Below, piece after piece: positions 38,404 through 61,900 of a stretch of DNA of 64,000 nucleotides (positions are counted from its first letter, which is position 1; each line of letters begins with the position of its first letter). This DNA is from Nemertoderma westbladi (lineage: Eukaryota; Animalia; Xenacoelomorpha), in contig JAUCBJ010007824.1 of assembly GCA_032718475.1 (NCBI GenBank), positions 49,316 through 113,315 of the forward strand, written 5' to 3'. The translations under genes were made by a program, and so were the position numbers. The notes below the pieces were generated by a model. That model made no database searches, was not told where the DNA came from, and saw only the letters and a program-made list of their open reading frames with translations.

Positions 38404-40105
38404 CTAAAAAAATGAAAGAAATTTGAGACACAAAACTGAATGAGAGAAAAAGTGGAGTGTGTTATAGAAGATGGAAAAACTTATAAATATAAAACTTATT
38501 AATATAAATATAAATAAATATTGGGTTGGTGCAGCTATATATTTAATTTTATATAAAACTTTATCAAATATCTTTATGCCATATAGTATCGTCAGCAAAT
38601 AGCGCAGATAGTAAGTAGGTGGCATTAGGAAGGTCATTTATATATTGTAAGAATAGAATAGGAGAGAGAGTGGACCCTTGAGGGACACCACAGGTTAGCG
38701 GTTCTAGAGAAGAGGTGTGGTTATCAATAGTTACAGATTGGGTGCGGTCAGAGAGAAAGCTAGCTATTAGTTTATTTGGTAGGCCTCTGATACCATAAGA
38801 TTCAAGCTTCTTTAGTAATATTTGGTGATTGAGGGTATCAAAGGCCTTTTTGAGATCTATAAATATAGCGCAGGTAGAGTTTTTGGAGTCAAGAGAGTCA
38901 TGGATTCGTTCGATTACTGAAAGTAGTGCATGAGTTGTAGTTGTTTTAGGTCTGAAGCCGAATTGTGACGTAGTAAGAATTGAATATTTAGTTAAATATG
39001 AAAATAACTGCAGATTAATTATTTGTTCAAATATTTTGGACAGTGCAGGTAGTAATGATATAGGCCTATAATTATTTGGGTCGTAGGGGCTCTCTCCTTT
39101 GTAAGATGGTATAACTTTAGCATACTAAAGTAATTTAGGGAAGAAGCCTTTATTAATAGACAGATAAATTAATTTACTGAGGTGAATAAAGAGAGATAGG
39201 TTTAGCTGCGTGAATTAATAGTTGTATAGGGAAGTAATCATTTGAAGACTTTTTGGGGTTTAGGTGTAGTAAATAGTATTCTACTTCTACCAGGGAGGTT
39301 TCTACTAATGAAAACGAGTTAGATTTAGTGTGATTAATATAGCGGAGAGGGGAGCGAGTAGAAGTGGGTATTTCATTTGCCAGTTCAGGACCTATAGTGG
39401 CGAAGTGGGTGTTTAATACATTCGCAATGCGAGTTGGGTCTGTAATTGTCTCAGTGGTGGTGTCAGTGCATGTAGTTTTTTAGGAGATTTAAGTTTAGAT
39501 GATCTATTTAGGGCGGAGTTAATGATAAGCCAGGTTTTTTGAGTATTGTTAGAGTTAGATTCAAGCTGAGAAGAATAACCAGCAGCAGCCCGTAAAATGG
39601 AAGTCAACTTATTCCGGTACTTTTTAAATTTATTAAGGTTGGACTCTGTTGGGTGTTTTATAGAGTTACGGTAAAGGTTGTTTTTTTTAATGGTGCAGTT
39701 TAACAGATTATTTGTCATCCAAGGTTTAATTATAATTTTCTTTGGGGGGACAGATTATTTTGGTATGTGAGATGAGCAGATATTTTCTAAATTTTGGTAG
39801 AATTCATTGAATTTTTCTGAGTTAGGTGTATCGTCCGAATTATAAGTCCATGTAAAAGGGGAGTTAATTTGTTCCAGAAATTTTTTGCGATTATATTTAG
39901 TGTAGTCATAAATGGTATGATTTTTGGGCTGATTGAAAAAACAGGAGTATTTCTGAAAAATTGTGAAAGTGGGTTGGTGATCCGAAGTGAATCCTATTTT
40001 ACTCTGAAAAGTACCAGCTTTTGAAATGGAGGTAGTGATGTTAGTTATAATGTGATCGATTAGAGATTCAGACCAAGTAGTTACTCTAGTAGGTTGATTA
40101 ATTAA
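38404..40105 (-). mobile_element. Decayed CR1/L2-like LINE ORF2 fragment (endonuclease end plus RT)
   Basis: Minus-strand motifs IDHII, SDHQP, PWMT, YRPISLL, QFGFRP, DLKKAFDTLNH, GVPQGSTLSPILF, FADDT. Confidence 0.9.
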
Positions 40106-40659
40106 CCTTTATCTACCAGAGGCTTCCTAAAGCCAGTAAACATACCTCCATGAATTTGTAAATGATGTTGCCAAATTTATTAATAGAGGTCATAATTGTA
40201 GTGAATTCGCTAAAGGGAATGTGTCCTTTCCCTCTGAATGTAAAATTGACTGCCAATATTGACTTTTGAAAGATTTATTGCAGAATGAAAACCTCCTATG
40301 TCAGAAATCCAACCTTATTATGTTCCCGCTTTAATAACTCCTAAAATTATTTCAAGGTTTAAGTTTAATGTATTTTTTAATAAAACGCATAAAGGAAATG
40401 TGTAACAATATTAAAAAACATTCTGCAGGATATACTGTAGGCCTTACTGCACATACTACAGGCCATGCTGGGAGAGATGGTATAGGCGATAGGGTACTGT
40501 GAATGCCTGGATTGAACCCGGAGGTCGCGGCATATATACCGGGTAGTAGGCAGGAACCTGATAGAACTATACCGGTACCTACACCAGTATGACTATAATA
40601 TGCAGGGATACAATATATACCCAGGGGAAGGGGGGGGGGGGGGCGTGTATTGCAGATAG

Positions 40660-43600
40660 GTGTATGGGCCCAAGACATCTACCCCAGTACCAAATATAAC
40701 ATCGGTGAGGGGGGGACAGGGTGACATTCCCCCATTACAGTATCTGCAATACACACAACCAAAATTAAATACCCCGACCCCCTCAGATCCAAATAGATCG
40801 TGTGACACGGAGATATGGAGGGGACCGCTACCCCCGATGATATATCCCACTCAGGGAACTCAGGGAAACCCAAGAGGCGAAGCAGAGCCAACGTTGAAGG
40901 ACCCTGCATCCCTACCGTCGAGCGCGCTGGAAGTTCAAGCGATGGGAATGGCAACATTGAGCTGCCACCCTTTCAAGCCTGTCATTCACGCCTTTCAAGT
41001 TTGATGGTAGCAAGCCGGAAGAATATCTACAGTTCCGGAGGATGTATAGTAATGAGATTTTGACAAAAAATCTCACACAGGTGGAGTGCCTTAAAAACCT
41101 ACAAGTCTATACAGGGGGGCCGCCTACGACATCGTGAGGCAATCCCAAGGTATTGAAGGAGGATTCACGACCGTGTGGAGAGGAGAGCCCTGGACAGGGA
41201 ATTTGGCCATCCTGCGAAGATTATCTGACAAACCTTAAGGGGAATAACATCAGGCAGACTCGCAGATAACCCCGTTAGCATCAAAACTTTCGCTAACAAA
41301 GTAGAGAAAGCGCTAATAGTGTTAAAGACCCTATATGCACCTTACGAACATCACCACGATAGCACAGGCACTACCGATTTGGCTAAGAAACAAATGGAGA
41401 AAGATTGCTTTCTCCACTCGAGAAAAGAAAGGTGCGGAGCCAGGGTTGGAGGAGATGTTGAATTTCCTTAACTATGAGGCGGAGCAAATAACAGATCCAG
41501 TCTATAGTGAGGACAGTCTAGGCAAGGTACTGAAAACGAAATACAGCCGACCTAAACCCGAACATAGTGCAGCGAATGCACTTCCGAAGGTGAGGCAGTC
41601 GCTACCGTATGCGGCCACACAGAGGACTACAATTTACAGAGAGCTGGGAGTAGAGCCACACTGTGGCAGGGACAGAAACCAAGTAACAACACAAACAAAT
41701 ACAAACCCAATACCCCCAGTAGGCCGAATCCAAGTAACCAAAACACTAAACCTCTAGATATGAATCTAAGCGCAATACGTGAAGCGCTATATAAGGAATG
41801 CTACAATCCCGAATACAAATGCCAATTGCATAGGATCGGCACACATAATAAGACCTTAAACTGTAAACATTGGCAGGTGTTGCTTAAACAAGATCGAATA
41901 GCCTACACCGGTAAGAATGGCGATCGATGCGATGTCATCGATGCGCAATAGGAGGACATAGAAAGGATGAATGCCAGGAACCACCGATTAAATGTGCCGA
42001 AACTTATGGGACTGGAGGCCAGACAATGGCGACAAGCACCATGGGATCAAAAAGGAAGGGAATAGTACTACTCGGAGTAGTACCAGTGAGGATAATTGGG
42101 GAGAACGAGCTATCGGTTACGATGTTAATGCTTCTCGATAGCGGAGCAGCATTCACGCTAGCAGAAAGTTGGGTGGCTGAAAAGATAGGGTTACAAACGA
42201 GGCCAAGTAAGATGGCGGTAACCACAATTTCCAGCACAGATAAAGTCATGAAGATGAGGACGGGACAATGCGAAATTGCAGCGATAACACCAGGGTGCGA
42301 CTATGGGGCTACCATCGAACCCATCCAAATAATAGAGTCGATCAACATTAACGCCATGTGACCTACAAAGATCGAGATCGAGAACTGGGACTGGACGGGA
42401 CTGGACGTCCCGAAAGTGTCTCTCATAGTCGGCATGGACTGTCCGACTACCCATGAGAGACTACAGACTGTCTTCGGCGAGGATAGGGAGCGAGACCCAG
42501 TGGCCATTCTCACGCCATTCGGATGGACGCTCAGTGGCCCAATAAAGACGAGAATCCCGTTCAGCGTGTCCAAATCCTCAGGGTGCATGTTCGCGGGAAC
42601 AATGAGGGAAATGGAGGATGAGGGAGCAGAGGAGCAACTCAAGAGGCTGCTACGGAAGGACTTCGAGGGGTTGAAGGAGACCGGGGTGGGAACCTCGGTG
42701 GAGGACAAGCAGGCGCAGGAGAGCATCAGGAACTCAATGAAGTGCGAGGGAGGGCGATATACCATAGGGATGGTATGGAAGCAGCCAAAGGTGCCCCTAC
42801 CAGACAATAAGAGGATGGTCCTGTTAAGGTTTCGAAGTGGAAAACATGCCTTCACGTGCGATATAGAGGGCATGTTTAATGCAAGTCTAGGGCATGTGAT
42901 GGAGAAGGATAGCGCTAGTCAGCGCTTCCTGTGGTACAATGGTGATGAAGAACCATCAGAGATACCGATGTACAAGATGGTAGTGCAGAATATGGGGGCC
43001 AAGTCATCCTCATTTACCATGACTACAGCCGTAAGAGGCAAAGAGGGGGAGTATAGTGAGAAGGCGATCGATGATTCGATGCGGGTTCTATGTGGACAAT
43101 AAGATGGGTTCTGGAAACTCGGTTAAGGAGATCCTCGATACAGGGCGCGAAGTTCGTGACATCCTGAAGAGGTCAGGATTTAACATTACGAAATTCCAAT
43201 CTAACTCTAGAGAATTCATAGAATCCATAGAGGATAAACAACTGGAGGTAAAGATAGATAAACCTATGATGGTAAAGGAGCAGATCATGGCAGACAAGAG
43301 AATAGAATCACAGCAGAAGGCACTAGGGATCATATGGAACCGGGAGACATGAGTTGGAGAATCAACTAAGTTAGGAGGGAGCCAGGATCCATACTAAATG
43401 AGGCTATGTGTCATACATAGCGAGGATTTACGATCCGCTACATATAGCATCCCTGTTGTTAGTCACAGGGAAACAAATATTGAAGAAGGTCTACAAGATC
43501 AAAGATGACTGGGACGCGGAGGTCCCAGTGGAGATAAGCAAACAGTGGGAGAAATGGACAGGGAGCCTCGAAGAAATGGGGATTTATAGTATGCCATGTG

Positions 43601-45712
43601 TATACTTCCAGGATGGGGACATGAGCAATTTAGAACTATATATCTTCTCCGATGCATCCCTGGAAGCCTTTGGTGTGGCGCTTTATTTGGTACAGCGGAA
43701 GGGGACTCATAAGCACAGGCTTGCATTTAGTAAAGCGAGGTCGATGCCACCAGGTTCAGCATCAGTGCCGAAACTTAAGCTAATGGCTGCGAGACTAGGA
43801 GTGAGAGCGACAGCATACTTGGTGGACACGATACCAAGTATAGTAGAGGCACACTACAGGACATAGTCCATGGTAGTGTTGGGATGGTTACATAATGAGA
43901 AGACGCATTATCCCATTTTTGTGGCTATTTGTGGATGAGATAAGAGCAACATCAGACTTGGAGAAGTGGCACTTCTGCCCAACTGACGACAATCCAGCGG
44001 ATCTGCTATCGAGGGGCATTGTACGCCACGCTTTCTCGGGAAAGCAGGAGTTGTGGCAGCATGGCCCGCACTTCCTTAACGACAGGTCGAAGTGGCCACC
44101 AATGAGGAAGGTGGATCCAAGTCCAGAGGAAGTGACAGTGGAGGATGAGAGAGAGGAATCAGAAGGAGAATAAATATTTAGTCAGCTAGTGAGGGAGGTT
44201 AAGGAGGCGCTACCACGATCAAAGGCGATAGAGTCGTGCGATAACCCAACAGATAGGCTGCTCAGTTACAGCTCCAGCTGGTACAAGATGAAGAAGCTAG
44301 TAGTATAGCTGAGGGCCTACAGATAATTATTAGGGGAGCTGGCAAGGATACCAAGACAAGACCCACCATCGATCTGGAAGGAGCAGCCAAAGCCGTGATA
44401 CGATACGAACAAAGGAAGGGATACGGAGACGAGGTAGACCACATCAGCAAACAACACCGCCTTTGTCAAGACAAGGATAGGATCCTGGTCATGAACTCCA
44501 GGGTGGTAAACAACACCAGCCCCATAATCCCACCAAAGCTGATAATAATCCCCAACAAGTCACCAATAGTCCAACAGATCATATGCGACGCCCATAAGTC
44601 CATACTACATGGGGGTACCAACCAGACCCTAATGGAGATTCAGAAGATATTCTGGGTAATCCAGCTCAGGAAGATGGTGAAGGCGGTGGTGGCGCAATGC
44701 CAGATGTGCCGACAGATGAAGAAGGAGAGGGCCGTGCAGGAGATGGCGCCATTGCCGACCAGCAGGGTGAGACATCATGACCCACCATCCACACATTGCG
44801 GCATGGACATGTTCGGGCCGATTAAGGTAAAGGTGATGCGGCATACAGAGAAACGCTATGGCATTATCTTCGTCTGCAATATCACGGGGGCAGTGGGGAT
44901 AAAACTTGCTCAGGACGCCACAGCGTCGGCATTTATTAATGCGTTGGAGAGGTTCGTGACCCACAGAGGAGGAATGGTTGAGGTACTATATTCAGATAAT
45001 GGGACTAACTTCGTGGGCGCAGAGAACGAGTTAGTAGAGGCACTTGACATTTTGGGGGGTGAAGATGTCAAGGCAGCGATGAGGAAACACCTAATCAGAT
45101 GGGAGAGGAGAACTCCATACGCACCACAAACGCTGGGATATGTAGAGCGACTTGCGGGAAGCTCCAAACAACTCATGAACAAGCTCACGAATAACCATGT
45201 GGTTACTGAGGACATACTAAGGACAGAGCTGGCGAAATGCGAGGGAATTATCAACAGCCACCCGCTGTATCCGGATCCGGATCTGTAATGATGATCCAGA
45301 ATCGCTGGATGTCCTAACACCAGCACACCTGCTGATGGAGAGACCAGCGAAGAGTGACATGCTAAATGTCAATCCAGACGATATACATTTGCGTCAAAGC
45401 TGGAAGGTGGCTAAGGCGATAAGTGCAGAGTATTGGGCAAGGTGGATCCAAGAGTACCTTCCAACACTGCACAAGAGGAGTAAATGGAGGAATAACCAGA
45501 GAGAGCTATGGAAGGGTGACTTGATAATCGTCACAGATGACACAATTATCAACAATCACTGGAAGTTGGCTAGGGTAGTGGAGACCTACCCCGGCGAAGA
45601 CGGAAGAATTAGATCCTTGGAAGTGAGGATCGGAGGAAAGATAGGGGCCAAAGATAGGAAGACCTACAAGAGGGCAGTAGGGAGGTGTTGCCTATTGGAG
45701 GAGTCACCCTAA
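40660..45712 (+). pseudogene. gag-pol: Fragmented Bel/Pao gag-pol of element C
   Basis: LPIWLRNKW gag; LLDSGAAFTL protease; CDIEGMF, FYVDN RT; IYDPL, FSDAS, DNPADLLSRG RNase H; H..ILH..CQMC, GMDMFGP, SDNGTNF, WIQEYLPTL, GRCCLLE integrase. Many stops and frameshifts. Confidence 0.93.
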
Positions 45713-45980
45713 ACTAGTTGAGTCATCCAATATATTTGACTGAGGGGGTGGGAATGAGGGTGAGACACCCTTCCCACACACTAAACAGAATAAAATAAAA
45801 TAAATAAATAAAAATAAAATAAGTAGTAAAAATACTAGTACCAAGGTACACTGTAGGTAGACATTATGTACGTCTGATGCGTATGGATGTACCAACATAC
45901 ATAATATATAGGTGTAGGTAGAAACAATTATGTACATCGGACGGGTACAAATGTACCAACGTACCTAATTTACATATGCA

Positions 45981-46420
45981 CTATTGTGGGCACTAAGGGT
46001 GTCACATGAGGAGTTGAGGGGGGTATGCATGCATGCTGTGGTGGAAGGGTACACAGTACCGTAAATACACATACTACATACTATTGTGGGCACTGAGGGT
46101 ACCATGTGAGGAGTTGAGAGGGGGGTATGCATGCATACCAGGGTGGAAGGGTACACAGTACCGTAGATACGTAATACGCACTATTGTGGGCACTGAGGGT
46201 GCCACGTGAGGAGTTGAGGGGGGTATGTACGCATACTGTAGCAAAGGGTACACAGTACCATAGTGTGGATTGGGAGGGGTATACATTGCGTGCGTCTGTT
46301 GGGCACAATGTGCCAACGTACGTAATAAATACCAGCACAAGCTGGGTCAATGGGACCAATAACACGTAATACGTACTATTGTGGGCATTGAGGGCACCAC
46401 GTGAGGAGTTGACGGGGGTA
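45981..46420. repeat. 100-bp tandem repeat between pol and the cargo ORF of element C
   Basis: CTATTGTGGGCACT.AGGG...GAGGAGTTGA at 45981, 46081, 46181, partial at 46376. Confidence 0.9.
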
Positions 46421-46906
46421 TGTAGGCGTAGTAAAATAAACCGTGGAGGCCGCACAAACTGTACTACTGTAGTGCATAGCCCGTAGTACACACTTAGGGT
46501 ATTGTTACAGAGCCAGGAGACTGTCTGGTAGGAAGCTAGTATGACAATAGGAAAACTGTAGCTAGTCTTCTCTGTATACAAGTAGGAATGGATTACTTAC
46601 GTAGTAATCAAGTGGCAGATAGAATAATAGCACATATAGGGGAGAATATAAAATAATAACAAAATAATAAAATTATAGCAACTGGGAATAAAAATACTAG
46701 AATCATTAATAAAAGAAACGGACAAAATTGTAAATAGGAGCAAAAATTTACACATAGGGGAATATTTGTACTAAAAGGTAGCAAAATGAGCAGATAGGAG
46801 GTAGGCCATTGCTAATCAAAGCTAATAAGATCTTATTTAGTAACCCTCTTACCTAACTGAGGCTTTCTAAGGCCCCACCAGCTTGGTGAGAGTGAGTTGA
46901 TTCGTG

Positions 46907-49630
46907 ATGGCGGAGAAACTAGTGAAGAAGAGGATGTAGGAGAAGAGCGGAAAGGTGTTACTAGTGGATTTCATGCTGAGGAATACGGAGAACAAGACGA
47001 AGGGATACTACAAACGAATCCCAAAAGCTCACAAAGCGCATGTGCTACAGGATCAGTTTAGGGAGATGCACGAGCGACGACTGGTCGGGACCTACGGGAC
47101 GCCGTCGTTGGACAACGCGATCGACGAGCATCTTCGCTACGTCGTAAAGGGGGATGAGGCTAGGCTCGGGATACCGAAGTACCCGAGGGAACCACCGAGG
47201 AAGGAGTGGAGGAAGTTTGTAGATTCCGTGGAGAGGGGTGGATACATGGTCCTAGACGACGAAGGGACTGTGGAGGATGACGATGGCTCGAGAAGGGGGT
47301 CAGGAGGATCAGCTAGAACCATATTGCTGCACTTAATGGCACCGAACGGAGATATCTTTCTATTCGACCTAGGGACCTACGGGTAGAGGAGCAGACCGAA
47401 GTTAAACCGGTTGCCGAGCGCGATGCAGGAGCTAGTGAGGTTGAAGACTATGGACAAGGTGGGATCGGCGATACGTGGCGACGCAGACAGAATTATTGGA
47501 CCAGGAACCCCGAATCTTCTGGACATGCAGGTAGTCTACATGGCTGTGACAAAACCAGACGGATTGGGATTGGTGGACAACACGGGACATTACGGAGCCG
47601 TGGCGATGGGCCAACTGATGGGACTCATCTGCCACAAGCCAATAGACTGGAACAAGTTCCGGGAGGAATACAGAGCGGAACTTGCAAACTCACTCAAGTG
47701 GGGAGCTAGACCGGGGAAGGAGGAGCTATATCACTTCCGGAAGGGAGCGATAAAGATATATCATAAGAGATATATCCTACAGGAGGACTGGATAATGATA
47801 GGTTTACTAGATCTATTCATCACGGTGATTATCGGCAGGGAGCCAACGGTGTTTCTACTATCGTGATCACCTCTTGAGCCACAGGAGAGCCTTTAAGGGG
47901 CTGAAGGCCCTTCAGCCCCTTCAGAGTCTCCTCTCCTCAACCCTATCCGCCTCCTGTTTCTCCCATCGCATGTATGGTGTGTCTACCTCTCTGTCCACCA
48001 GGTGTCGTGTATTGTAATATACCGACTCGCCCTTCAGTGAAGGGCGAGTCGGTATATCACAATACCCGACACCTGGTGGACAGAGAGGTAGACACACCAT
48101 ACATGCGATGGGAGAAACAGGAGGCGGATAGGGTTGAGGAGAGGAGACTAGAGGAGGTGGCCAGGAGAGAGAGAAGGGAGGCAGTGGGCAGAGAGGCAGA
48201 TATAAGGGGAGGGGAGTACGAGTGCGAAGCCCAGGACTTGGACGAGTTGAGGTGGGGATCGGAGACCTCAGGAGAGTTTCGGCTGGGGGATGAACAGGGT
48301 TGGATGGAAGAGACACCAATACAGTCTACATCGGGGCTGCAAGGAATGCCGATGCCTGCGGGGTCTGAGGGTGACTTCGGAAGGAAGAGACCAAGGGAGG
48401 TAGAAGGGTGGAAGGCCATGGGAGAATACCAGGCCGGAAAGGGACACAGTGGATCAACCGGGATCCCTGGTTTGGATCCGCTCCCGGCAGGGGATGAAGA
48501 AGAGGACGAGTTCGGGGTGATGCTGCCGATAGAGAGGATCGGACACGGACTGGGTGGATGGGAGAGTGATGACAGCCAGCGGGACGAGAGCCTTCTGGGA
48601 TGCACCCGGCAAATGGACCTGGGAGAATGGGGAGCCGGTAATGGACTTTGTGGCGAACACGATCTGACTGGGCGAGCAACCAGGGACGGCACCACGGGCA
48701 GTGTTTGGAGAAACGATGCTGAGGGAGGAGGAGGACGTCGATATGGGTAGGGAGGACAACGTCGAGATGTTTACCTACCAGTGGATCCACAGACCCAGGT
48801 GGCTATGTGGAGCCAAGGACGACTTAGGGCGAGAGACATTGATAGAGGGTTGCGATTACTGTCGGAGACTAACCCATCAGCAAAAGAACTTTCTATACCG
48901 TTTCCAGAAGGGGACGACGTGTCTTTACTGCTGCGAGTCCATGCACAGGATGGGTGTGTGCCCAAGGTTGCACCACAGGTGTTCGAAGTGCAAGTTTAGG
49001 GATCACTTTGAGCACCAGTGTGACTGGATGGAGGATGAGGAGAAGTTACGCATTTTCGAGGAGTGGGCCGACGTCGGAGTCATGACATGGCAAAGGATGA
49101 AGGCCCAGGAGTTCCGATGCAGGGGCTTCTTCAACATTAATCTACAAGCCCACCAGCAAATCACCAAGAGGAGATGACCATTCACGTATCAGGATGTAGC
49201 GACAGCGGCATCATACGGAGGGGTCATCAACACCCAAAGATATCTGGATAGATGGTCACCAGAAAATAGGATAGAATTCAGGGATTTTCAGGCGGAACAC
49301 ATGCCGCATGCGATGAAAATGATCTTGTGGGACACTACCAGTGGGAAACAGGAGGGACACTCAGTGGGACCACCTGCGAAGCGATACCGTAATTTAATAA
49401 CACCCTTGCCAAAGGACCAACAATGGGGCTTGGTAAGATGGTATCAGCGAGAATGAGTAGACTCAAGGGTAAACAGGAAGGGAGGAAGTGACCCAGGCAG
49501 GACAACGATAGGGGTAAGGAACTTAGATGGTTCCCGGAGGGTGCGGGAGGAGCAATATAAAACTCTAGAACTGATTACAGGAGATGTCAATGTGCCTGGA
49601 AAGCACCGCATTGACAAACCAGTACAATAA
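46907..49630 (+). pseudogene. Cargo ORF of element C: DEDDy (WRN/EXD-like) 3'-5' exonuclease domain, acidic linker and CCHC zinc knuckles; disrupted
   Basis: YMVLDDEG (ExoI), ILLHLMAPNGDIFLFDL, LPSAMQELV..DKVGSAIRGDADRI (ExoII), NLLDMQ, YILQED (ExoIII-like); then CDYC....H, CLYC....H....C, CSKC....H....C. Pieces are linked by in-frame stops and two frameshifts. Confidence 0.7.
47925..48149. repeat. Fold-back palindrome, 112-bp arms with 1-nt spacer (centre 48037)
   Basis: Arms are reverse complements with 2 mismatches; a second 13-bp-arm palindrome lies at 47895-47921. Confidence 0.95.
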
Positions 49631-50699
49631 TTCGTAAGTGCAATTAACCAAGTGCAATTAGTATGTACGTAGGTAATCAATCAATATTAGAGAAAGTATA
49701 ATATACGTACTATAGTCAGATATAACCTTTTCCAATTAGCTACTGGGACTGGGGACTAATTGACTGAAACAGGAGGACGAGACATTAGACTGACCTCACT
49801 TCTTGAGTGCGACAGCATAAACGATAATGTGAGGCCCAGCAGAAGTGAGTGGGGATAAAACGGGTTGAGTATGGGAGGAGCATGGGGAGAAGGTGTTAGG
49901 GTATGGGGAAGTAAAAGGGTGCAAGATTCAAGCGTGGGGAGCAGGCATGGAGGGGGATGAGTCCTAAGGGACTAGTGAGAGAGAAAGGGATAACAAAGTG
50001 CGAAAGTTAAAATTGCGTGAGGAGTGAGGGCGATCATCTAAAACAGAGATGTCAGATGCCTTGGTACAGCTTAGCTCGCAGATGTACCAAGGATGGGTAG
50101 TGAAAACAGACCCATGGGGGCCAGCCTGGAAAGCTGACCCCGAGAAGAGAATTCCACTCCACATCTAATATTAGATTGGATTCCAGTTGAATTGAAGCGC
50201 ACTTAAGGTTGATGCTATCTTCTTACCGGGAAGATAGCATGGGGGGGGGGGGGTGTAAGAGGATTCAATTCCCTGCACTACCTAGCGGAAAATGGGCGAA
50301 GTGGCTTTTTACCAATTACAGTTAGGAAGGGGACATTACCAATATAATGTCACCAAATAACCAACTCTGGCAACACACACTGCAATAGAGTTGCCAGAGT
50401 ACACCACGTATAGAGTTGAGAGGCCATAAGCCATCTCAGGGGACAAATGGGCTAGCAATTGGGAGGAAACACTTAACATCTATCTACATTAACTAACATT
50501 ACACTACTACTTACAACTAACATTAACAGGACACCCCTGTCTAGTCTGCCTTGTACATGTACATTTTGTACAGTACTGTAGTTTGAAGCTGCTAAATTAT
50601 GTGTATAGGCTTTTAGTAAGAACTACTTCAGTCAAAATGTCTCACTTTTATTGTGCTTTCTAACTGTTATTAAATTATTGAAATAAAATATTTTTCGTC

Positions 50700-50857
50700 T
50701 AGGGTGAGGGGGGGGGCTATAAATTTACGAAAAAAAAATTTTTGTGACAGAGGGGGGGGGGGGGGGGTCGAGCTTGCGTGACACTTAGTGACAGAGGGGG
50801 GGGGGGGGGTCAAAAAACTGGAAAATTAGAGTGACATACTTTATGAACGCCCCCTAA
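50700..50857. repeat. G-run-rich MITE-like terminus
   Basis: GTGACAGAGGGGGG repeats ending GTGACATACTTTATGAACGCCCCCTA; partner end not found. Confidence 0.4.
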
Positions 50858-50923
50858 GGATAGGGCAAAAAACAAATGTGTGTTTTTTATAAAAACACGT
50901 GGAAACGTTCGAAATGGGGGGTT

Positions 50924-51399
50924 TAAGTAAGTCTGGGAAGCCAATTTTGAAAATCGGCTGTGATTGGCTGCTACAAATTTGACGTCACTGCGCAGTACTT
51001 AGATAAATTCTTATATTGGTTTCTATGGAGGGTGATTTTAGCTCCATTAAAATACACATTTAATCTCAATTATTTCACACGTGGCAAGTTGGTGAGTGCT
51101 TGCATACGGGGTCAGGCAATCTACCACGTTTGCAAAATTACAAACAGTATTGTGTCAATGTTCATGATCATGAATTTAAGTAATTGTAGTGTTAAAAGAC
51201 GCCCAAGACTCTCCGCTTTCAATTGATATACCGGAAAGTCACGTGTGAAATGATTGTGATTAAATGAGTATTTGAATGGATCTAAAATCAGCCTCCATAG
51301 AAACCAATATAAGAACTTATCAGAGCACTGCGAAGTGACGTCAAATATGTATCAGCCAATCACAGCCGATTTTCAAAATTGGCTTCCCGCGCTTATTTA
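50924..51399. mobile_element. MITE-like element with ~160-bp imperfect terminal inverted repeats
   Basis: GGGAAGCCAATTTTGAAAATCGGCTGTGATTGGCTG... is mirrored by ...CAGCCAATCACAGCCGATTTTCAAAATTGGCTTCCC. Confidence 0.85.
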
Positions 51400-52107
51400 T
51401 ACACGCCATTTAGACCGTTTCCTCATGATTTTTCAAATAACACACCCCGCCACTCGATTAAGGGCACCTTCTTACCCCATATTCAATTGTTTCTAGCCCA
51501 ACAATTTTTTCGCGCACCAACCCTATTAATAGAAAATATAACACAAATACAATCACCTAACAATTTATTTAAACACAAGCAATCTATAATCTAGTATAAT
51601 TAAACAAGAACATAATATATAAAACCACAATAGAATATTTAAAAAGTAGGTAATTTTAAAAATTAAGTAAATTAGGTCCTACTAACTGCGACACCATTCA
51701 AGTGTGGTCTTTAAAGTCAATTCAACATCAAACTTCAAAATTAAGGAATACAGTGGTCACACTTCAACCGTTTATGGGGTGGAGAGCATTACTACAGTAG
51801 TTATTTATTCAAACGTGAAAATTTCAACCATTTCTACCAAAGTACCAAATTTATATATAAGTTTGGTGTATATATTTGACGCGGGTCATCGCCTACGTCA
51901 AACATACCGCTTATTAAACAAAAATTACTCGTATAATACGGAAATGGGCTTTCAAATTCAAGCAGAGAGCATAAAGCGTTTTTAATCAAGGATATATTTT
52001 TATTGCACAATATATTTTAATATTAAATATCAAAATAATTAAACAACCAAACTGTAAAAACGATAAAAATGGAAATACGTTCAATAAAAAACAATAAATT
52101 AAAAACA

Positions 52108-52559
52108 TTAAACAAACGTCTTGTATGAAAGATAATCTTTGAGACATTTTGGCAACGAAAGTTGTTCCAATGATTGGTTAGGCTGCAGTACATGTTTCCT
52201 AGCAACCACACGACACAGATGTTTCAACGATGGCACATCCCTGAGATTTCGATAAAAGTTTAAACAACCGTGAGACGTAAGGGCAACGATATGGTTGGAA
52301 TCGGGAGAGAATAGGGAGTATATACAGGTCTCTAAATGTATGTAGGAAGATGGAACGGACGGATTACTTAAGGTCCAGACGCGGACGTAGTTGTCGGTAG
52401 CGGTTGTAGTTAGTTGGGAACCGTCGCACGAAAAGGAGCAGCCTGTTAGTGCGACGCCGTTGTCGCCGCTGGCCAGCACCGGGCGAGGGGGTGGGAATAG
52501 ATGGCCCAACGAAAGGAGAACCGAGCCGCTGTCTACACTCCATACGATGACCCAGGTAT
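52108..52559 (-). CDS. WSB1: WD repeat and SOCS box-containing protein (WSB1-like), coding exon 2
   Basis: Acceptor TTTAACTAG at 52560; reads DTWVIVWSV..LGHLFPPPRP..WD40..SOCS box VPSLKHLCR..LSLPKCLKDYLSY. The two exons total 1200 nt (399 aa plus stop), in frame. Confidence 0.92.
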
Positions 52560-53216
52560 CTAGTTAAAGAGGTTTTCACATTTCCCTACCGCCTTTGGTA
52601 GTTAGATAGAACCAAAATGAAACACAATTGTATTTTAAAATTTTAGAATTAGTTAACGCTGTTATTATTAGCAATATCGATTTTCGATTATTACCAATGT
52701 AATAAAAATATTTTTAAATTATATATTTATTGGTTACCGGTAATATCGGAAAAAATTTCATTGTAAAATTAAGTTAAGAAATGTGTAAAGCGGCACAAAA
52801 TTGAATTAGAAGCATTTTTGAAGCGTAATGTGGGATCCCTCACCATTTTACATTGCATGTACTATGAATGACCGGCCTAGGTAGCCTTGTAAAAGTAGTA
52901 GTAAAAGCCGGTAACTTTAAAATGAAAATGAAACTTGAAAATCCTTTACTAGGTTACGCCACAAAGATTACGTAAATTATTATTATCAAGAATTAGGTAA
53001 TAACAAAAATATCATTTAATCTTAATTAATTTTAGCCTTTATAGCTATGCCGCAACTATACCAATACTTTGATTACATTAATGGAATAAAAACAAAATAT
53101 TAAACATTTGATGTAAAATTTTATTTTGTAATAAAGCTACAAACATATTTTATATTTATATTTAATATATACCACTACGTTCGTTTGTGTAAAGTAAACT
53201 ACTCAGGTTAGCACTA

Positions 53217-53680
53217 TGTAAAGTGGGTAAGTTGTAATGTAAAGTGAGTATAGTATTGTAAAGTGGGTAAGTAGTAACGTAAAGTGAGTAAGTTAAGTAT
53301 TAACGTGAAGTGGGTAAGTAGTAATGTAAAGGGAGTAAGTAGTAATGTAAAGTGGGGTAGTAGTAAGGTAAAGTGAGTAAGTAGTAATGTAAAGTGAGTA
53401 ATTAGTAATGTAAAGGGAGTAAGTAGTGATGTAAAGTGGGTAAGTAGTAACGTAAAGTAAGTAGTAATGTAAAGTGAGTAAGTAGTAACGTAAAGTGAGT
53501 AAGTAGTAACGTAAGTGAGTATGTAGTAATGTAAAGTGGGTAAGTGGAGTAAGTAGTAATGTAAAGTGGGTAAGTAGTAACGTAAAGTGAGTAAAGTAGT
53601 AACGTAAAGTGAGTAAGTAGTAATGTAAAGTGAGTAAGTAGTAATGTAAAGTGAGTACCGGTAAGTAGTAACGTAAAGTA
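53217..53680. repeat. 21-bp minisatellite (AAGTGAGTAAGTAGTAATGTA, ~22 copies) in the WSB1 intron
   Basis: Directly visible tandem array; it produces the spurious repetitive ORFs 53214-53699 and 53293-53844. Confidence 0.95.
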
Positions 53681-54026
53681 GGTAAAATTCCATTATCAAA
53701 TGTCTTCCGAATCCATAATTTGAAGAAATCGCTAAATTCCAATATAAGGTCTTTCAGTAGGCTTACAGTTTGATAGTACAAGTAGTATATACAGGAGACA
53801 TTAAATTTCTTGGCTTGAAAATTTATAGGAAGGTTTCCCAACAATACATGAAGCTTACACCTAATATCTGGTGTATTTATAATTTAGTACCAAAACATCA
53901 GCAAGAATTGCATCTGATTTTCTATTACTTATTCTATTTTATTATTCAAGTAATAAATTAATAGATCAATGAAATAAAGCAGTGAGTTAAAAAAATTAAC
54001 TAGCAGATAGGGGTATGTGAAATCAC

Positions 54027-54774
54027 CTAATGAAGCAGTAGCTAGGAGACCACCATCAGGGGAGAATGTACAGGCGATTACAGAGTTGTTATGACCAAGA
54101 AGCTGCCGAAAAATTGAATATTTACCAGTTTCGTATAGAGTTACAACGTTACTGGAAGTAACAACTGCCAGGAGGTGCCCTTGTGGGGACCAAGAACACC
54201 CGTGCACTGATCGCGAGGTGTTTATGGTAACTATTAGGTTACCATCATCCTTTAAGTCCCATATCTTAACGGTTGTATCTCGAGACGCAGAGGCCAATAG
54301 AAGACTCCCGTCGGATATAAATTCGAGATTGTGCACCACCTCGTTGTGATCCAACAGAATAAACACGAGTTTTCCGGTTTTAAGATCGAAAACCTTAATT
54401 TTTCCCGATTTCAACCCGCATGCGATTATGCTCGGGTGCTGATTGGGGTTGAATAGCTGGAAGCCTACGTACGAGCTACGCCTCCGCTGTCCTGATACGT
54501 GGGACGCGAAGGCGAGCGAATGTACCGTTTCGTGACAATCGAATTCCATGCAGACGTTATCGTCGGTAGATGAATCTGATCTAGCGATGTGTACCATTTC
54601 TGCGATGGAATTGCCGCAAGGGTAGGCGAAATAGTGACGACGTGAGGGAGAGAATGATCCCGTTATAGGCCTATATGGTTGATTTAGCGAAGGAGAACGG
54701 TTGAATTTGAACTTCCTTTCAGCTTTCAAGGAGACAAGATCAGATAAGGAGCACGAAAAACTTCCAGTATCCAT
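54027..54774 (-). CDS. WSB1: WD repeat and SOCS box-containing protein (WSB1-like), coding exon 1
   Basis: WD40 repeats (LASASRDTTVKIWDLKDDGN, LLGHNNSVIACTFSPDGGLLATASL); GT donor at 54026, phase 1. Confidence 0.92.
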
Positions 54775-57308
54775 GATTTATATCATCGCTAGTATAGGCC
54801 TAGTTACAGGGTTAGTAGGCCTACATCAGTGACAGTGAGCAACAGTCAGACAGTTAGTCTGTCAGACTCAGTACAGCAGTTGTATGTAATCCAAGTCTAT
54901 AGCTGTATAGTAGGCCTACTGTAAAAGGCCTACTAGAAGAAACTGCTACCCGGTAGGCACTAAAACGTTTGGGCCGACTTTGTTAAACAGTGACAACAAG
55001 ACAAAAGGAGTGATAAAAAATGACAAAGTACTTACTTCATGGTGGGGGCATTGCTGCATTGATTGAGGAATATGCAGTTTTGGGGTACCTACAGTACACG
55101 GCCATTTTTTTACCCATCATTTTTTGCGTTTTTTTTGGGTTTTTAAATTACCAGAATATGGTCAAAAACACCCTCTGATTCGGGAACACTTAGAAATTTT
55201 TTTGAGAATTGTCAAAAAGCGTGTTGAATTTCGATACCAATTGGAAAAGTTTTTCAAAAATGTCCAAAAATCAACTGATTAACACAACAAGTATAATTTC
55301 AATTACAATTCAGCAATTAACAGATTAACATTTTGGAATCAAATACATGAAATAGAATGCATGCAATACCAGTAGGCCTACTCCAAATACAATATAACTA
55401 CAAAATTCTATAGATTATTAAATTAGTTAGACAATAGATTAGTAAATACGTGCATTGACATCCTTTAATGTAGCAACAAGTTCATCATGACTGTGGTTGA
55501 CTGCGAGTAACTTAGCGACCTGGAGCCAAGCTACAAGCGGTGGAATCGGTTACTTTCGGTGGTTACAGTTAGTTAAGAACGTGCAGAACTGAATTTTGTT
55601 TCCGCTGGTGTTTCCTTTCGACGATAATGGATGGAAATGTTGACGAAGTGAACGTTTAATTACGGAATGCATACATTCGACGGTTCGTGTGTGTTCCATC
55701 AGCGGTTATAAATTTGGATCCAGCACACTCTGCCACTATGACTGTATGATTTACTACTTTAATTATGAGTCAGATTTTGCTGCCAGAGCTAACTGCATAC
55801 ATTTACCTTGCCGTGTGCATAGTAACTTATTGTATGCATTTTAACATCTTGTTGTTTCACACTATTATTGCATTGCTTTGTTGATGAATATACAGGACCA
55901 GAGATCAAACCAACTCGATTTCCACGCGGTTAGTGCATATTGTGCCCTGTCTGTAATAGATTCGGTTCATTTAGTGCGAGTGTGTGTGTCCATAGTACTG
56001 CAATATTATTCCCCAACTAGTAAATATCATCTACTAACACTATGCATGCAGCACGAGTAAACTGTGCGCTTATCACTCACTGAGTCAACATAGTGTCCTA
56101 CCTGTGATATATATAAGCCATACGTACATCTACTAGCCAACAACACAACATATCGGAACAGTTTACACGTAACTATCGTCCCCCTTTGAAGCAGTTTGTA
56201 AGTGCAGAGGCCTTATACTTACAGTAATTAATTCTACATCTAGAGATAATAATATATATATACCCCCACACTTTCGTGAGTGTTCCTGCTGTGTGGCAGG
56301 TATCCCAAGGCACTTGATAACACTCATAAGAATTACACAAAGACTCGTACGGCGTCTGTAGGTTACCCTCCCGTAAATGCCTTGACAGTAAAATACTATT
56401 TTCAAACACTGCCCCTAAGACAGTGTTCCCCCGTACAATTAATTACATTAACATCTCGAACATCAAGTGTGCTGTGGTAGTGGACTATAATAAAACTGCG
56501 CAGTTTATTATACCCACTTCGCACAGCGGTTTCCGTGTAAGTAAACTACTTCAATTACGTGTCGAACTGGTGTTGTGTTATTTACATATGTTTTTATTTT
56601 ATTTGATGTTGAGAACTGAATGCTTTGTCGACGAATTGTTAAAGGATTTGAAACATTACATTGTCCATGATGTGTAAATTCTCCAAACGTGTTGAGTTGT
56701 TAGACCTACGTTCCCCGCGGGAGGCGTAAATCGTGGGCTGGCGGCACGTGAAGCGTAAAGTTGCAAAACAGGGAGAGCGTTATTGACAAAAGATAATATT
56801 GACAATCCCGCAATTATTTGGTGTGATACTGTAGTTTGGTTTGATGTGTTACAATATTATACTAGCATTTGTGAATTCTGTTGTGCAGTATTGTGTGAAT
56901 GCAATTATTGCAGGTGCATATCCATGCGAATTACTGATTGAGTTGGAGAGTTTACTTGTGTGACTGTGGTTTAATTTATCATTATTAGTTGTACGTTTGC
57001 GAAGTCAGTGGAAGACCAAACCACCCGAGGGAGTGTAAACGGCACACTGCGTGTGAAACGGTTAATTACAAATAAATTACTATATTCATTACCGTATCTT
57101 AATAATTTAGTTAGTATTTGAAAGGTGTGTAACGGACACTATTATCAAAATTTGTTTTACTCTTTCGGTTTTATTTTAAGTAACTAAGTAACCTGGTATT
57201 TTTATTGTTTTACTGTACTTACGCCCTACCTTTGTATTAACTGTTTATCATTATAAACTTGTAACATAGCGTTACAACCCCCAAATATCGTAAGTACGTT
57301 TTATTACC

Positions 57309-57400: not shown

Positions 57401-58930
57401 GTTTTTTCATTCAGTCCAGATTCCACCGGCGGTTGAATTGATCCAATTATCGGTTAAATATCATTATAGCGGTAATTACATGAAACACAGCAAGGTTGGT
57501 TTATTGCCTCTATGTATACTAGCCTCAATGTGAGCAGGGCCTCATTACCGCCTGACTCGGATTGCTATCAGCTGAGATTAACAGGTTGCCAGGCAACGTG
57601 CCAAAACAATACTGTTTAAAGTGGGTATAGCTGCTTTTTTATGTTTACGTTACCGGTACCGTATGGACACACAATTCTGCATACAGCTATATATAAAATA
57701 ATATTTATAAAATATTTTTTATTAATAATTTATTAATTTCAATTAAAGCAAATAATATAATAATTATTCTAGTAAAAAGTCTTGTTCAGCTCAATTAGCT
57801 GAGGCTTCATTCAAGCCCTGTATTATTTAGTTATATTCTGTGATTGGTTTCAGTTTCAGTATTGTACTGTATTTAACTTGGACATAGTTATATTTGATAC
57901 TTATCAAATTAATTTTTATCACATGGATATCAGAAACTTCTTTACAAAGCATTACTACCTACATTATTACCTACGTACAGCAATACTTAATTATTACATC
58001 CTTCTTTAGGCTATTAAACTGTTTATTTAACAGGTAAAAACCGGCCAGATTAACACATATCAATCCTTGTATTTAGTTCAAGGGAATGGACACCCCACGC
58101 CAATTTCATTCTGAACATAACCATTTATTTGGATTACAGGCGACTTCAGACATATATATTTATTTATAACAACATTGTTTGCAGGAATAATCTCAGTAGC
58201 ACTTGTGCTTGGGATTAATAAACACATCTTGCACATTAATCAGGTACCAGTGATTTATTGCGATTCGCAAATTAATCCAACCCCAAGGCGATTCATATCT
58301 CGCCCCACAGCGGCGCACAGTTCTAGACAGCTTGTCGCCAAACGGCTTCGACTCAGACTAAAACTCCTTTGTTTGACCCACCTAGTCGCGACATATAACA
58401 TTCCATTCCCATTATTAGTGCTGCTTACTCCTTCGAGTGTTGAGACCTAATACACCCCCACCACCAATAGTATACAGCAGTGGTTAGACATTCCTTACAC
58501 CCATTGGCTTGTGTAACCTAATTACTTGCCCAGTTTGTGGAATTTAGATCTCACCACTTCCTATTGAACAGTAGCCCATACCGACGTTCTTGAATACCAT
58601 CACTGATTAGACAGTAACGGACGGCATTCACTGGGATCACTGTAGACAGCGACTACTAGCAGAGAAACGAGAATTGCATAAACACTTTTACGATACTTGT
58701 TATTCCCCTTTTATTTAAAGGGTGCTTTTAATTTGTTAGAAATAAAGCCACTAAGCGGGAGCAGAGAACATTGTATCCTTAATAGTAGTCAACTTACCTA
58801 TTCTCTAGGTGGCGCAAATAGAAAACCTTGCTAATGATTAATTATTTACTTTATAGAATAAATACTTAGTTGAAAACCTATTTGTAGCTACCGTACACTA
58901 TTTGTGCAGAGATTACATTGACCTAACATC

Positions 58931-61900
58931 ATGTCAAAATCCGATACTGAGACCGAGCCATTTGTCCAACGTCCACCACCCATAGCTGCCCCTATTACTA
59001 GCATTCCCCCTTTGATTAACCAAGTTGCGCCACCCGTCCCTAGCAAGAAATCTTGGGACAGGTCCCGTATTAGAACTAGACAGTCTACCGGAGGGATTGT
59101 GAATAACACGAACATAGAACCACTTACAACTAGTGTTGTACAAGCTGGGGTAAGTTCACCATCACTATTAGTAATGAATACATCCCCCATTATGTTCGCC
59201 CCCTCACCCAACAGTAATGAGGAATTACATCGCCTGAGCGATAACACCCTTTCTCAGAACATCGCGAATGAAACGATTCCCGTTCACCCGCAAGCCAGAC
59301 TAGCTCACTTGCTGGAGGAAATCGACAGTTACCAGGAAAGAGTAGCAACTGGAACTGTAGCTATTGAACAAGAGGTTTATGGGGAGGAATTGCACTACTT
59401 AATATACTTACATTATGCCCACCCGGAACTCCATAGGTTTTTCCGGTTTAATGACATGACATGGGCAGACCTATATAAGCTAAAGGTTCCTCATGTTCCA
59501 TGCAGCAATGAAGAACTATCCGCTTTGGTTTATGATCACGTAGCCGATTTTAATCAGCGTATAGGAACCCTCACACATGAGCTACAGACTGTACAGTGTA
59601 CAGGGACGAACCAAGCTGCATACTTTAAAGTTAAAGAACTAGTCTGCAGAATCCAGCTAGTTTTATCCACCTTCTGGGAAGTGTCTAGTAGACACCACAA
59701 CGCCGAATTAGCTGCCATAGTTGGCAGGCAGTTAGCAGAAGTAGCTGTGATAGCCGGGAAGGCACTCGCCCTTGAAAGGCTAAATGGGCCGACCATTCCT
59801 CCGGGTGTGGATATAGCCTGTTCCGGTACCGTAGCCCCGCAAGATCTGCGCACAGTCTCGGAAGATTCCGGAGAAGATGAGGGTATGGATGCCATATCAC
59901 GGCACCTATAGCATTACATAGCTATAGTAGGAGAGACTGAACTACGTAGGAGGTTAAAGGGTTTAGCCCCCTCTAGCCCTGAATCAATGGCAGTTCTAGA
60001 AGGAATAGAAACCGAGCGTGACATGCAAGCACAGGCAGAAGGGCATGCAGCTGATAAGGAAATATTAGAAATGGAGTTGCAGTTAAACGCAAACCAGCGG
60101 CATAATGAAATCAGTGAATGCGCCGATGAAATGCAGTTAGAAGCCGAACAGCGGAAGAATGAGCGCTTGGAAGCTGATATAGCTCTACAAAATAAAATAG
60201 CACTAAAAAGATTAAGTGAAAATCAGCTCAAGGAAAAGTTAGGTTCAAACCGAGGATGAGATAGGCCGAATAAAGGGACTTATGCTTTGTCGGATGAAGG
60301 AAACTCCACCAACGCTAGTGAAGGTGGTAGCTACTCTCGGGGCAGACGAAAGAGAGCTGTTAGAGTGGCATTGCCGGACCTGCCTCCATATAATAGAGAC
60401 AGGATGCCCACACAGCAGACGGATTTAGATTATCCGAGACTGCTGGATTCGCGGCCCCCCTGGGTAGGTTACAGGAGGAAGATGTGCCAAACGATCCCGG
60501 GTTCAAGATCTATATAGATCCACAGGAATGGAAGCCACATCAGATGGTTGCGCCCCCATCGTGTGATGTATCAGCCGAGCCAATCGACCCAGTAGTAGTT
60601 CTCCACTCGACCATAGTAACAACCCCTTACCGCGATAGAGATTTTATACCACCAATAGGGGCCCCACCTATAAATAAACAGATACTCAGGGAAGCCCCCC
60701 TCTAAAACCCTATATCTCGTACGGATTGCCTAGAATGCCCCAAGCCTAACTACTTGTCTAGCACCTTAGCCAGGATGAAAGAGTGTCGTTTGGCGCCGAA
60801 ATATCCCCAATCACGAAAGTGGAATATATTATAGCCAACAGGACAGGCAGGATGGCAGGCACCTGGCTCCCGGATCGACCCCCTTGGCCGCGACGACGCC
60901 GGTGGTAGTGGGGACCTGGCATCCGGGGCCAGGAACACCGTTGTCATCCGGCGGGCAGGCATCAGTCCCCAATAACGGGCAGGGGAAGACCTACCCCCAA
61001 GGTGGTGTCAGGTTTGCGCCAGACACCCCCAATTGAGGTGTTTCCCCGAGGTGATCCCATTACACCTTTAGAGGCCTATGCACCCCCGTTAAACCCCAAC
61101 CTACATAACACCCACCATCATGTGCCAGAAATCAGACAACCCAGACAACGACGATTAACGGGAAATCATTGATTCTTTGTTACAAAGAAATGATGACATA
61201 GAGCAACAAATAGCCTTAATGCAAGACCATATCACTCTAACAAATAGGAAAACAGACTCGCAAGCAGCATCACAGGGTGTAAAAATCATAAAACGTGCCT
61301 CAGATGTGAGTGGCATTCATGCCGAAAATACGGCACATCAGAACAACCAAAGCTCACATCTAACCGAAATTCTGTTAAATTCTTCGGCAGTCCAAGCCGA
61401 CCTAACCAGACAAATGGCTAGGAATGAAGCCAGACAGTGCGTCTCCTCAGGTCAAATCTTAAAGTTTGATGGCGACGAACTGAAGTGGCTACCTTTTGCA
61501 GAATTCTGTAAGGATAGCATTCTAGAGTCTCCATTAAGTGAACGTGAGAAGCTTAGGTATTTAATCAGCTGTCTGGAGGGACCTCCAAAACCGATGGCCG
61601 CAAAATATGTGGGCCATGTAGACGGTATTAATACCGTTTGGGATACTCTAAAAAAGCGATATGGCAACGAAGAAAGTTTGGCACGTAATATGTATGACAG
61701 ATTGATCTCCAAGAACAGATCCACTCAAAACGGGATCATAGAGTTTAGAGATGAGGTGGGGGAAATTTGTCGCCAACTTGATTGGCTTGGACAGAAACAG
61801 GTCTATGATACTATTATGACGATCCAGTTTGTTTCCAGTGCGTTGCCAAAGGGCTCCACGGGAACTAGATGGGATAGATATACTTATAATTATAAGCTTA

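What the first reader, a model, noticed from the sequence alone, without database searches (positions are those of the whole stretch)
46907..47866. LTR retrotransposon carrying a DEDDy 3'-5' exonuclease in the env position
Seen: between pol (ends 45712) and the PPT/LTR (50241-50254), one frame from ATG 46907, broken by single TAG stops, gives YMVLDDEG, RTILLHLMAPNGDIFLFDL, LPSAMQELVRLKTMDKVGSAIRGDADRI, NLLDMQ and YILQED. Established: this order matches WRN/EXD2/Mut-7/Egalitarian-type DnaQ-fold domains (DxE; LQL..LFD; LP..L..KVG..I..D...L; YA..D). Several such proteins act in small-RNA pathways, and retroelement RTs lack proofreading. Inference: a Bel/Pao lineage acquired a nuclease that may counter piRNA/siRNA silencing, process its own RNA or cDNA ends, or proofread for a large genome. 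I know of no standard description of this cargo in Bel/Pao, but novelty was not searched.
Basis: partly seen in the sequence, partly recalled or inferred. Interest (0 to 1): 0.85.

Follow-up and report, generated by a model that had tools for sequence, protein, structure and literature searches.

The report
Bel/Pao retrotransposon carrying exonuclease-like gene
A broken copy of a Bel/Pao jumping gene carries, behind its polymerase gene, an extra gene shared by many copies and kept by selection, which likely encodes an RNA-trimming nuclease of the EXD1/Egalitarian type; such cargo is published for rotifer retrotransposons, but we found no report of it in this group.

Summary
A 319-codon frame (46907-47866, two TAG breaks) lies between Bel/Pao pol (ends 45712) and a G14 tract + TGT (50241-50257); the 5' LTR is missing. 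Blind searches find no relative. A targeted test supports the exonuclease reading: an EXD1/Egalitarian-like profile scores it at P about 1e-5, above 1000 of 1000 shuffles and 789 of 789 other window frames; the profile was chosen after a first weak hit. Candidate site: D117, E119, D192, and Y289-x3-E293, 12 residues later than usual, with Glu for Asp. It is family cargo, not a one-off: 150-273 diverged contigs per run cover its end in three runs, and 19 of 28 listed variants are silent against 26.5% expected. DEDDy ORF3s are published for bdelloid LTR elements (PMC5408684), and this scan noted similar cargo in other genomes. New: the Bel/Pao carrier and the EXD1/Egalitarian affinity. Activity and purpose are untested; RT proofreading fits worst.

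The parts
40432..45712 (+). Decayed gag-pol of a Bel/Pao element, 5'-truncated (protease, RNase H/Peptidase_A17, integrase, DUF5641)
   Evidence: Pfam hits; family contigs have loose ends before 40432. Pfam did not find the RT domain in the two pieces scanned.
45974..46430 (+). About 100-bp tandem repeats in the 1.2-kb spacer between pol and ORF3
   Evidence: TRF 45974-46236, period 100, 2.6 copies; further partial copy to 46430
46907..47866 (+). ORF3, 319 codons, broken by TAG at 46937-46939 and 47384-47386; about 105 N-terminal residues unassigned, then the exonuclease-like domain
47252..47266 (+). Candidate Exo I, LDDEG (D117, E119)
   Evidence: aligns with LDCEG of EXD1/Egalitarian-like proteins; coordinates
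47456..47482 (+). Candidate Exo II, KVGSAIRGD (D192)
   Evidence: K, V and D invariant in the 32-row alignment A3
47699..47725 (+). W-x-x-R-P block (W265)
   Evidence: rank 1 of 310 positions in the ungapped block test
47771..47788 (+). Candidate Exo III, YILQED (Y289, E293, D294), 12 residues later than usual
   Evidence: rank 1 of 304 positions, usual register rank 35; no listed amino-acid-changing variant in 47765-47805 among 40 of 51 rows shown
47925..48149 (.). Inverted duplication (112-nt arms, 2 mismatches, 1 nt between); the left arm has the base bias of the opposite strand and interrupts the coding region
48038..48750 (+). Acidic, G-rich open stretch in another frame (stop-to-stop frame 47905-48750), possible linker
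   Evidence: no family hit
48668..49456 (+). Cys/His-rich frame, same frame as ORF3, with two C-x2-C-x4-H-x4-C knuckles at 48920 and 48980; one TGA break at 49175-49177
   Evidence: 0 of 2000 shuffles gave two in one frame; Pfam zf-CCHC_4 only E 0.9
50241..50257 (+). Polypurine tract (G14) and TGT, likely start of the 3' LTR
   Evidence: no second LTR in the window

Best explanation
This is a dead copy of a Bel/Pao retrotransposon family whose third gene, kept by purifying selection, likely descends from a captured EXD1/Egalitarian-type DEDDy nuclease and would act on RNA 3' ends. Shown: the frame, its place behind pol, its presence in many diverged copies, the excess of silent changes, the motif order. 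Inferred: the DnaQ fold; a metal site of D117, E119, D192, Y289 and E293; expression apart from pol (1.2-kb spacer); a link to the downstream zinc knuckles in one RNA-binding protein. I commit to this mechanism as most likely: the protein binds RNA in the cytoplasm and trims 3' ends, and it helps the element by blunting host small-RNA silencing, the pathway in which EXD1 works (bioRxiv 2025.08.03.668247, passage). Odds: DnaQ-fold cargo 0.85; RNA substrate 0.65; catalytically active in intact copies 0.5; anti-silencing purpose 0.3.
For: Collinear BLASTP match over 167 columns to a Mollyvirus Egalitarian-like domain, pairwise E 0.012 (that domain hits Egalitarian at E 3e-19). hhalign to an 8-sequence profile E 0.00039, probability 35.6. 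HMM P 1e-5; 0 of 1000 shuffles, 0 of 789 other window frames and the reversed protein reach it; without the seed protein P 3.3e-6. Two separate blocks rank first in the ORF in the right order. 273, 196 and 150 contigs lie on 221 bases in three runs from two studies, most 80-95% alike, and 2 in a third study. 19 of 28 listed variants silent in this frame, 4 and 2 of 28 in the other + frames, 26.5% expected. One contig joins 45579 (pol end) to 47688 (ORF3), a second, deleted copy with the same linkage. Published precedent for DEDDy ORF3.
Against: No Pfam, NCBIfam, PHROGs or PDB-sequence hit to an exonuclease. No relative among 1888 candidates or 1.84 billion representatives. The profile was chosen after a weak hit with one of two seeds; scaled to 24,736 families its P would be E about 0.1-0.25. 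The HMM alignment shown covers residues 142-276 only, so Exo I and Exo III rest on other tests. In the usual register motif III reads F277...A281, with no acid. The fourth acid would be Glu. No intact or full-length copy was seen. Exo I and II were not checked across copies. The link to the knuckles is broken by a stop, an inverted duplication and frame changes. Nothing here tests activity, substrate or purpose.
Confidence: 0.5

Rival explanations
1. The domain has the DnaQ fold but works as a binding module without needing catalysis, as Egalitarian and EXD1 do. It would carry or shield the element's RNA, or act as a decoy in the piRNA pathway.
For: Best fit is to the EXD1/Egalitarian-like set. 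Egalitarian's function survives mutation of all five catalytic residues, and Exd1 is described as inactive (passages). Motif III is displaced and has Glu, or is absent in the usual register.
Against: Exo I and II acids are kept, and the YILQED block shows no amino-acid-changing variant among the rows shown.
Confidence: 0.25
2. An active nuclease used in the element's own cycle: it would trim the 3' end of the genomic RNA, the primer tRNA or cDNA ends inside the particle, or proofread for RT.
For: Rodriguez et al. propose 3'-end processing of element RNA for the bdelloid ORF3s. The downstream knuckles have the same CCHC pattern as the gag knuckles in this window, which could bring the protein into the particle.
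Against: It is a separate gene 1.2 kb behind pol, not fused to RT. The Pol I exonuclease profile gave no score (4 sequences). Two other Bel/Pao copies in the window have no tblastx match to this ORF, so it is not needed for the basic cycle.
Confidence: 0.15
3. A real, selected accessory gene of another or new fold; the exonuclease motifs are chance.
For: All blind searches were empty. The single-sequence model failed (pLDDT 31). The model was steered by an exonuclease alignment.
Against: Five motifs in order with plausible spacing; profile score above all 1000 shuffles and all 789 natural controls, also without the seed; two blocks rank first.
Confidence: 0.08
4. A host-gene fragment picked up once and decaying as a passenger.
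For: This copy has three stops and an inverted duplication in the region.
Against: Hundreds of diverged contigs, silent excess in this frame only, linkage to pol in a second copy, no close cellular relative.
Confidence: 0.02

Closest known systems
DEDDy-type ORF3 of bdelloid rotifer LTR retrotransposons Juno and Vesta, and of Athena/Terminon elements (PMC5408684, main text read; PMC6431247 and PMC5718144, passages)
   Same: A DEDDy-type exonuclease gene behind pol in place of env; family-specific; activity untested.
   Different: The carrier here is Bel/Pao; the paper's four clades are Juno, Vesta, TelKA and Mag (their Ty3/gypsy placement is recalled). There the motif is DEED; here it would be D-E-D-E. 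There intragenomic variation of the env-like and GDSL ORF3s tested looked neutral; here silent changes are in excess. No bdelloid sequence was at hand, so common origin is untested.
Egalitarian and EXD1 exonuclease domains (bioRxiv 10.1101/2025.08.03.668247, passages; PDB 9uju, 5fiq)
   Same: LDxEG, LFD, KV...RxD, N..DxQ and W-x-x-R-P in order, with the long spacer before the Trp.
   Different: About 20% identity; about 12 extra residues before motif III; Glu for the last Asp; on a transposon; no KH or BicD-binding part recognised.
WRN/EXD2, Mut-7/Nibbler and RNase D exonucleases
   Same: Same motif order; listed with similar Z (6.4-6.9) for the alignment-steered model.
   Different: Weaker profile fit. 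The fold result is circular and cannot rank subfamilies.
env-like third ORFs of Bel/Pao elements (roo F-like, mosquito gB-like; PMC13524379, passages)
   Same: Same position behind pol.
   Different: No envelope family hit; the paper has no occurrence of 'exonuclease' or 'DEDD'.

Membership tests
Bel/Pao LTR retrotransposons | Pao-type pol: protease, RNase H (Peptidase_A17), integrase, DUF5641 in this order | tested here: met
   all but rve over Pfam's cut-off
Bel/Pao LTR retrotransposons | RT that groups with Bel/Pao in a tree | not tested
   Pfam found no RT in the broken pieces scanned; no tree built
Bel/Pao LTR retrotransposons | Two LTRs, primer site and polypurine tract | tested here: inconclusive
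   Tract + TGT present; no LTR pair, copy truncated near 40432
DEDDy 3'-5' exonucleases | Exo I D-x-E | tested here: met
   D117/E119
DEDDy 3'-5' exonucleases | Exo II Asp | tested here: met
   D192, eight residues after the conserved Lys as in RNase D
DEDDy 3'-5' exonucleases | Exo III Y-x3-D | tested here: inconclusive
   Best block is Y289-x3-E293 with D294 beside it, 12 residues late; usual register has no acid
DEDDy 3'-5' exonucleases | DnaQ fold | tested here: inconclusive
   Unbiased model failed; steered model pLDDT 61.6, Z up to 6.9 with rmsd 4.4-5.4, circular
Pfam PF01612 (DNA_pol_A_exo1) | Score over the curated cut-off | tested here: not met
   No PF01612 row at E up to 10. I claim descent and likeness, not formal membership.
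DEDDy 3'-5' exonucleases | Metal-dependent 3'-5' activity | not testable with these tools
   needs an assay
EXD1/Egalitarian-like subfamily | Better fit to this set than to WRN-like, RNase D or Pol I sets | tested here: inconclusive
   11.4 bits against 0.7, -2.3 and none; profiles of 4-8 sequences, no animal sequence among them, no tree
Bdelloid DEDDy ORF3 clade | DEED motif | tested here: not met
   The paper gives DEED; the third acid here is Asp (D192)
Bdelloid DEDDy ORF3 clade | Grouping with these ORFs in a tree | not tested
   sequences not at hand

The most novel reading that the evidence does not exclude
A Bel/Pao lineage captured an EXD1/Egalitarian-type gene from the host's own small-RNA or RNA-transport machinery, rebuilt its active site (D-E-D-E, displaced motif III), joined it to zinc knuckles, and uses it as a transposon-encoded suppressor or mimic of the piRNA pathway.
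Probability: 0.18. Interest if true: 0.8.

Novelty: new variant of a known kind. Interest (0 to 1): 0.45.

Why it matters
It would add an independent capture of a DEDDy nuclease as the third gene of an LTR retrotransposon, in a superfamily whose reported third genes (in the papers seen) are envelope-like. Repeated capture, with selection on the gene, suggests that an RNA 3'-end enzyme gives these elements a general advantage. A high-copy family with natural variation makes the open question of what these ORF3s do testable, including whether animal retrotransposons encode their own anti-silencing proteins.

Tried and rejected
No whole genome is held. Empty searches for relatives of the ORF: word-index search, HMMER over representatives, PDB sequences, metagenome, viral and genome contigs, phage records (31, one E 9 row), Atlas by features for the C-terminal piece (recognition 2498, no usable hit); the Atlas question for the joined domain stays open. 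A search with a profile that included the ORF gave 236 proteins; the 120 listed were PF01612 proteins, the named ones mostly plant EXD1-like and pandoravirus, none named as transposon-borne; 116 were not shown. Single-sequence AlphaFold2 gave pLDDT 31 and meaningless Foldseek rows. The alignment-steered model and its matches are circular and not counted as support. DUF488-N3a (E 0.07-0.13, 21 residues) and phrog_33554 HNH (E 0.23) were rejected as chance. No RNA holder listed, which says nothing on expression. My interim reading that motif III is lost (F277/A281) was overturned but remains a rival. Contig depth was not used as copy number. A CTAAC at 46853 and a CAG at 46879 could be a splice acceptor, but five letters are within chance. 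Literature searches listed no Bel/Pao exonuclease case by title or abstract start; Repbase, Dfam and subscription journals were not searchable, and no supplements were opened.

Full report
1. Observation. The frame from ATG 46907 to TGA 47866 holds all quoted peptides and two TAG breaks, at codons 11 and 160. It has 2 stops in 319 codons; the other five frames have 7-23, and 0 of 5000 base shuffles had 2 or fewer. Upstream lies a decayed Bel/Pao pol: Asp_protease_2, Peptidase_A17 (E 2.3e-31), integrase and DUF5641 (E 2.6e-25), ending at 45712. A G14 tract at 50241-50254 is followed by TGT. That end has no partner in the window. Family contigs part from the window before 40432, and an opposite-strand RT remnant lies there, so this copy has lost its 5' end.

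2. Blind searches are empty. With X at the breaks the protein has no exonuclease hit in Pfam or PDB sequences, and its domain none in PHROGs or NCBIfam. It has no relative among 1888 word-sharing candidates or 1.84 billion representatives. Unbroken pieces found nothing in PDB sequences, metagenome, viral or genome contigs or the Atlas. A single-sequence model failed (pLDDT 31; Foldseek nothing).

3. I fetched reference exonucleases by tool, starting from E. coli RNase D. Of two seeds compared pairwise, a WRN-like one gave nothing (E 0.9). A Mollyvirus domain, which itself matches Egalitarian at E 3e-19, aligned over 167 columns at E 0.012: LDDEG with LDCEG, LFD with LFD, KVGSAIRGD with KVVHDSRGD, NLLDMQ with NVFDTQ, WGARP with WHRRP. 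Its seven relatives gave a profile. hhalign: E 0.00039, probability 35.6. HMMER without filters: 11.4 bits, P 9.9e-6; 0 of 1000 shuffles, 0 of 789 other 319-residue frames of the window and the reversed protein reached it; without the seed and its nearest relative, 12.9 bits, P 3.3e-6. The profile was chosen after the weak hit, and over a library of Pfam's size the E-value would be about 0.1-0.25. Smaller profiles fitted worse: WRN-like 0.7 bits (16 of 1000 shuffles as high), RNase D -2.3 (357 of 1000), Pol I none, a mixed set 5.3 (0 of 1000). These sets hold 4-8 sequences each (18 in the mix) and no animal protein, so the subfamily is a lead only.

4. Active site. Exo I is D117/E119 and Exo II is D192. 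In the references the Tyr and Asp of motif III stand 12 and 16 residues after the Trp of W-x-x-R-P. Here these places hold F277 and A281. An ungapped block from 18 of 22 references, slid along the whole ORF, ranks W265 first of 310 for the Trp block and Y289-ILQ-E293 first of 304 for motif III; the usual register ranks 35th, and the shift that would use D294 ranks 63rd. The likeliest site is D-E-D-E with Tyr, after about 12 extra residues. Whether it cuts is open. A model steered by an alignment of 31 exonucleases reached pLDDT 61.6 and matched DEDDy structures at Z up to 6.9. This is circular and shows compatibility at most; its C-terminal part was low in confidence.

5. It is family cargo under selection. 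Contigs of three runs (two studies) cover all 30 bins of 40000-51000. On the 221 bases around motif III lie 273, 196 and 150 contigs, most 80-95% alike, and 2 from a third study. Of the 40 variant rows shown (11 hidden), 25 are silent. In codons 262-302, 19 of 28 are silent, against 26.5% expected from the observed transition share (nominal p 6e-6; rows are not independent and are the best supported ones) and 4 and 2 of 28 in the other + frames. The 19 ORF rows tested gave 13 silent (they overlap these). No shown row changes a residue from R288 to L301. One contig in one run joins 45579 to 47688, so a second, internally deleted copy also has pol beside this ORF. All laid depth in three runs differs from the window at 47864, the first base of the closing TGA (table 3), so that stop is likely private to this copy. 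No piece spans an element, and Exo I and II were not seen in the rows shown (40 of 2593).

6. Behind the TGA come an inverted duplication (47925-48149), an acidic open stretch in another frame, and then, back in the ORF3 frame, two C-x2-C-x4-H-x4-C knuckles at 48920 and 48980 (0 of 2000 shuffles gave two in one frame). The other four such patterns outside the LTR end lie upstream of pol in the window's elements; one more falls in the putative LTR (50538). ORF3 may thus be one protein of about 800 residues with a nuclease and RNA-binding knuckles. This is inference; the breaks in this copy do not allow it to be shown.

7. Mechanism. Shown: position, multi-copy presence, selection, motif order. 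Inferred: fold, metal site, separate expression, RNA substrate. I put most weight on an RNA 3'-end nuclease that blunts small-RNA silencing of the element, because the closest fit is to a set related to EXD1, which works in the piRNA pathway (passage). The main rival is a binding module that needs no catalysis: Egalitarian keeps DEDDy yet tolerates loss of all five residues. Processing of the element's own RNA is third. Proofreading for RT fits worst: the gene is not fused to pol, the Pol I profile gave no score, and two other Bel/Pao copies in the window do without it.

8. Comparison and novelty. Rodriguez, Kenefick and Arkhipova 2017 (PMC5408684; parts 1-3 of 5 read, the main text; the rest as passages) describe DEDDy ORF3s in bdelloid Juno and Vesta elements, acquired at least twice and shared with Athena/Terminon elements, with motif DEED and untested activity. 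Reviews repeat this (PMC6431247, PMC5718144, PMC6338049; passages). For Bel/Pao, PMC13524379 names only envelope-like third genes (passages). Searches listed no Bel/Pao exonuclease case; most listed papers were seen as title and abstract start only, no supplements were opened, and Repbase and Dfam could not be searched. This scan noted Rrp6-like or DEDDh cargo in LTR elements of other genomes (unchecked notes), and nothing similar in this genome or by sequence. The kind is known; the Bel/Pao carrier, the EXD1/Egalitarian affinity, the altered motif III and the probable knuckles make it a new variant.

9. Verdict. Observation confirmed; interpretation partly supported. New variant of a known kind, interest 0.45. 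The boldest reading not excluded, a transposon-encoded mimic or suppressor of the piRNA pathway, gets probability 0.18 and interest 0.8.

Noticed in passing
window 48668-49456 (+): Two perfect CCHC knuckles 20 residues apart and a degenerate third upstream, in the same frame as ORF3; may be the C-terminal part of the same protein or a fourth ORF.
   Followed up: partly
window 47925-48149: A 225-nt near-perfect inverted duplication interrupts the coding region; a genomic fold-back or an assembly artefact.
   Followed up: partly
window 47748-47811: Summed contig depth is 10-30 times that of the flanks. It may mark the most conserved block across subfamilies, or a stretch shared with another repeat.
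   Followed up: partly
window 3617-15803 and 18444-about 33300: Two neighbouring copies of another Bel/Pao family with about 400-nt terminal repeats (3617-4021 and 15399-15803 are 99% alike). Each has about 3 kb behind pol with unassigned frames (13949-15403; 31450-32870), no Pfam hit and no match to this ORF.
   Followed up: partly
window 45852-46430: 64-bp and 100-bp tandem repeats in the pol-ORF3 spacer.
   Followed up: no
window 52108-54777 (-): WD40 repeats and a SOCS box, likely a host WSB-type gene (name recalled), with a 21-bp tandem array at about 53216-53676 between the two pieces.
   Followed up: no
window 38567-40108 (-): RT remnant (RVT_1 E 1.6e-28) with a weak endonuclease hit, likely a LINE, abutting the truncated 5' end of the element.
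   Followed up: partly
window 36257-36972 and 50878-51445: Two pairs of about 200-nt inverted repeats (93% and 86%), MITE-like.
   Followed up: no
window 58922-63943 (+): Start of a further Bel/Pao element (DUF1759, two CCHC knuckles, protease), running off the window's end.
   Followed up: no
window 40629-40660: A second G run followed by CGTGT lies inside the gag region; one contig in each of three runs skips 40636-40836, so it may be a small insertion.
   Followed up: no
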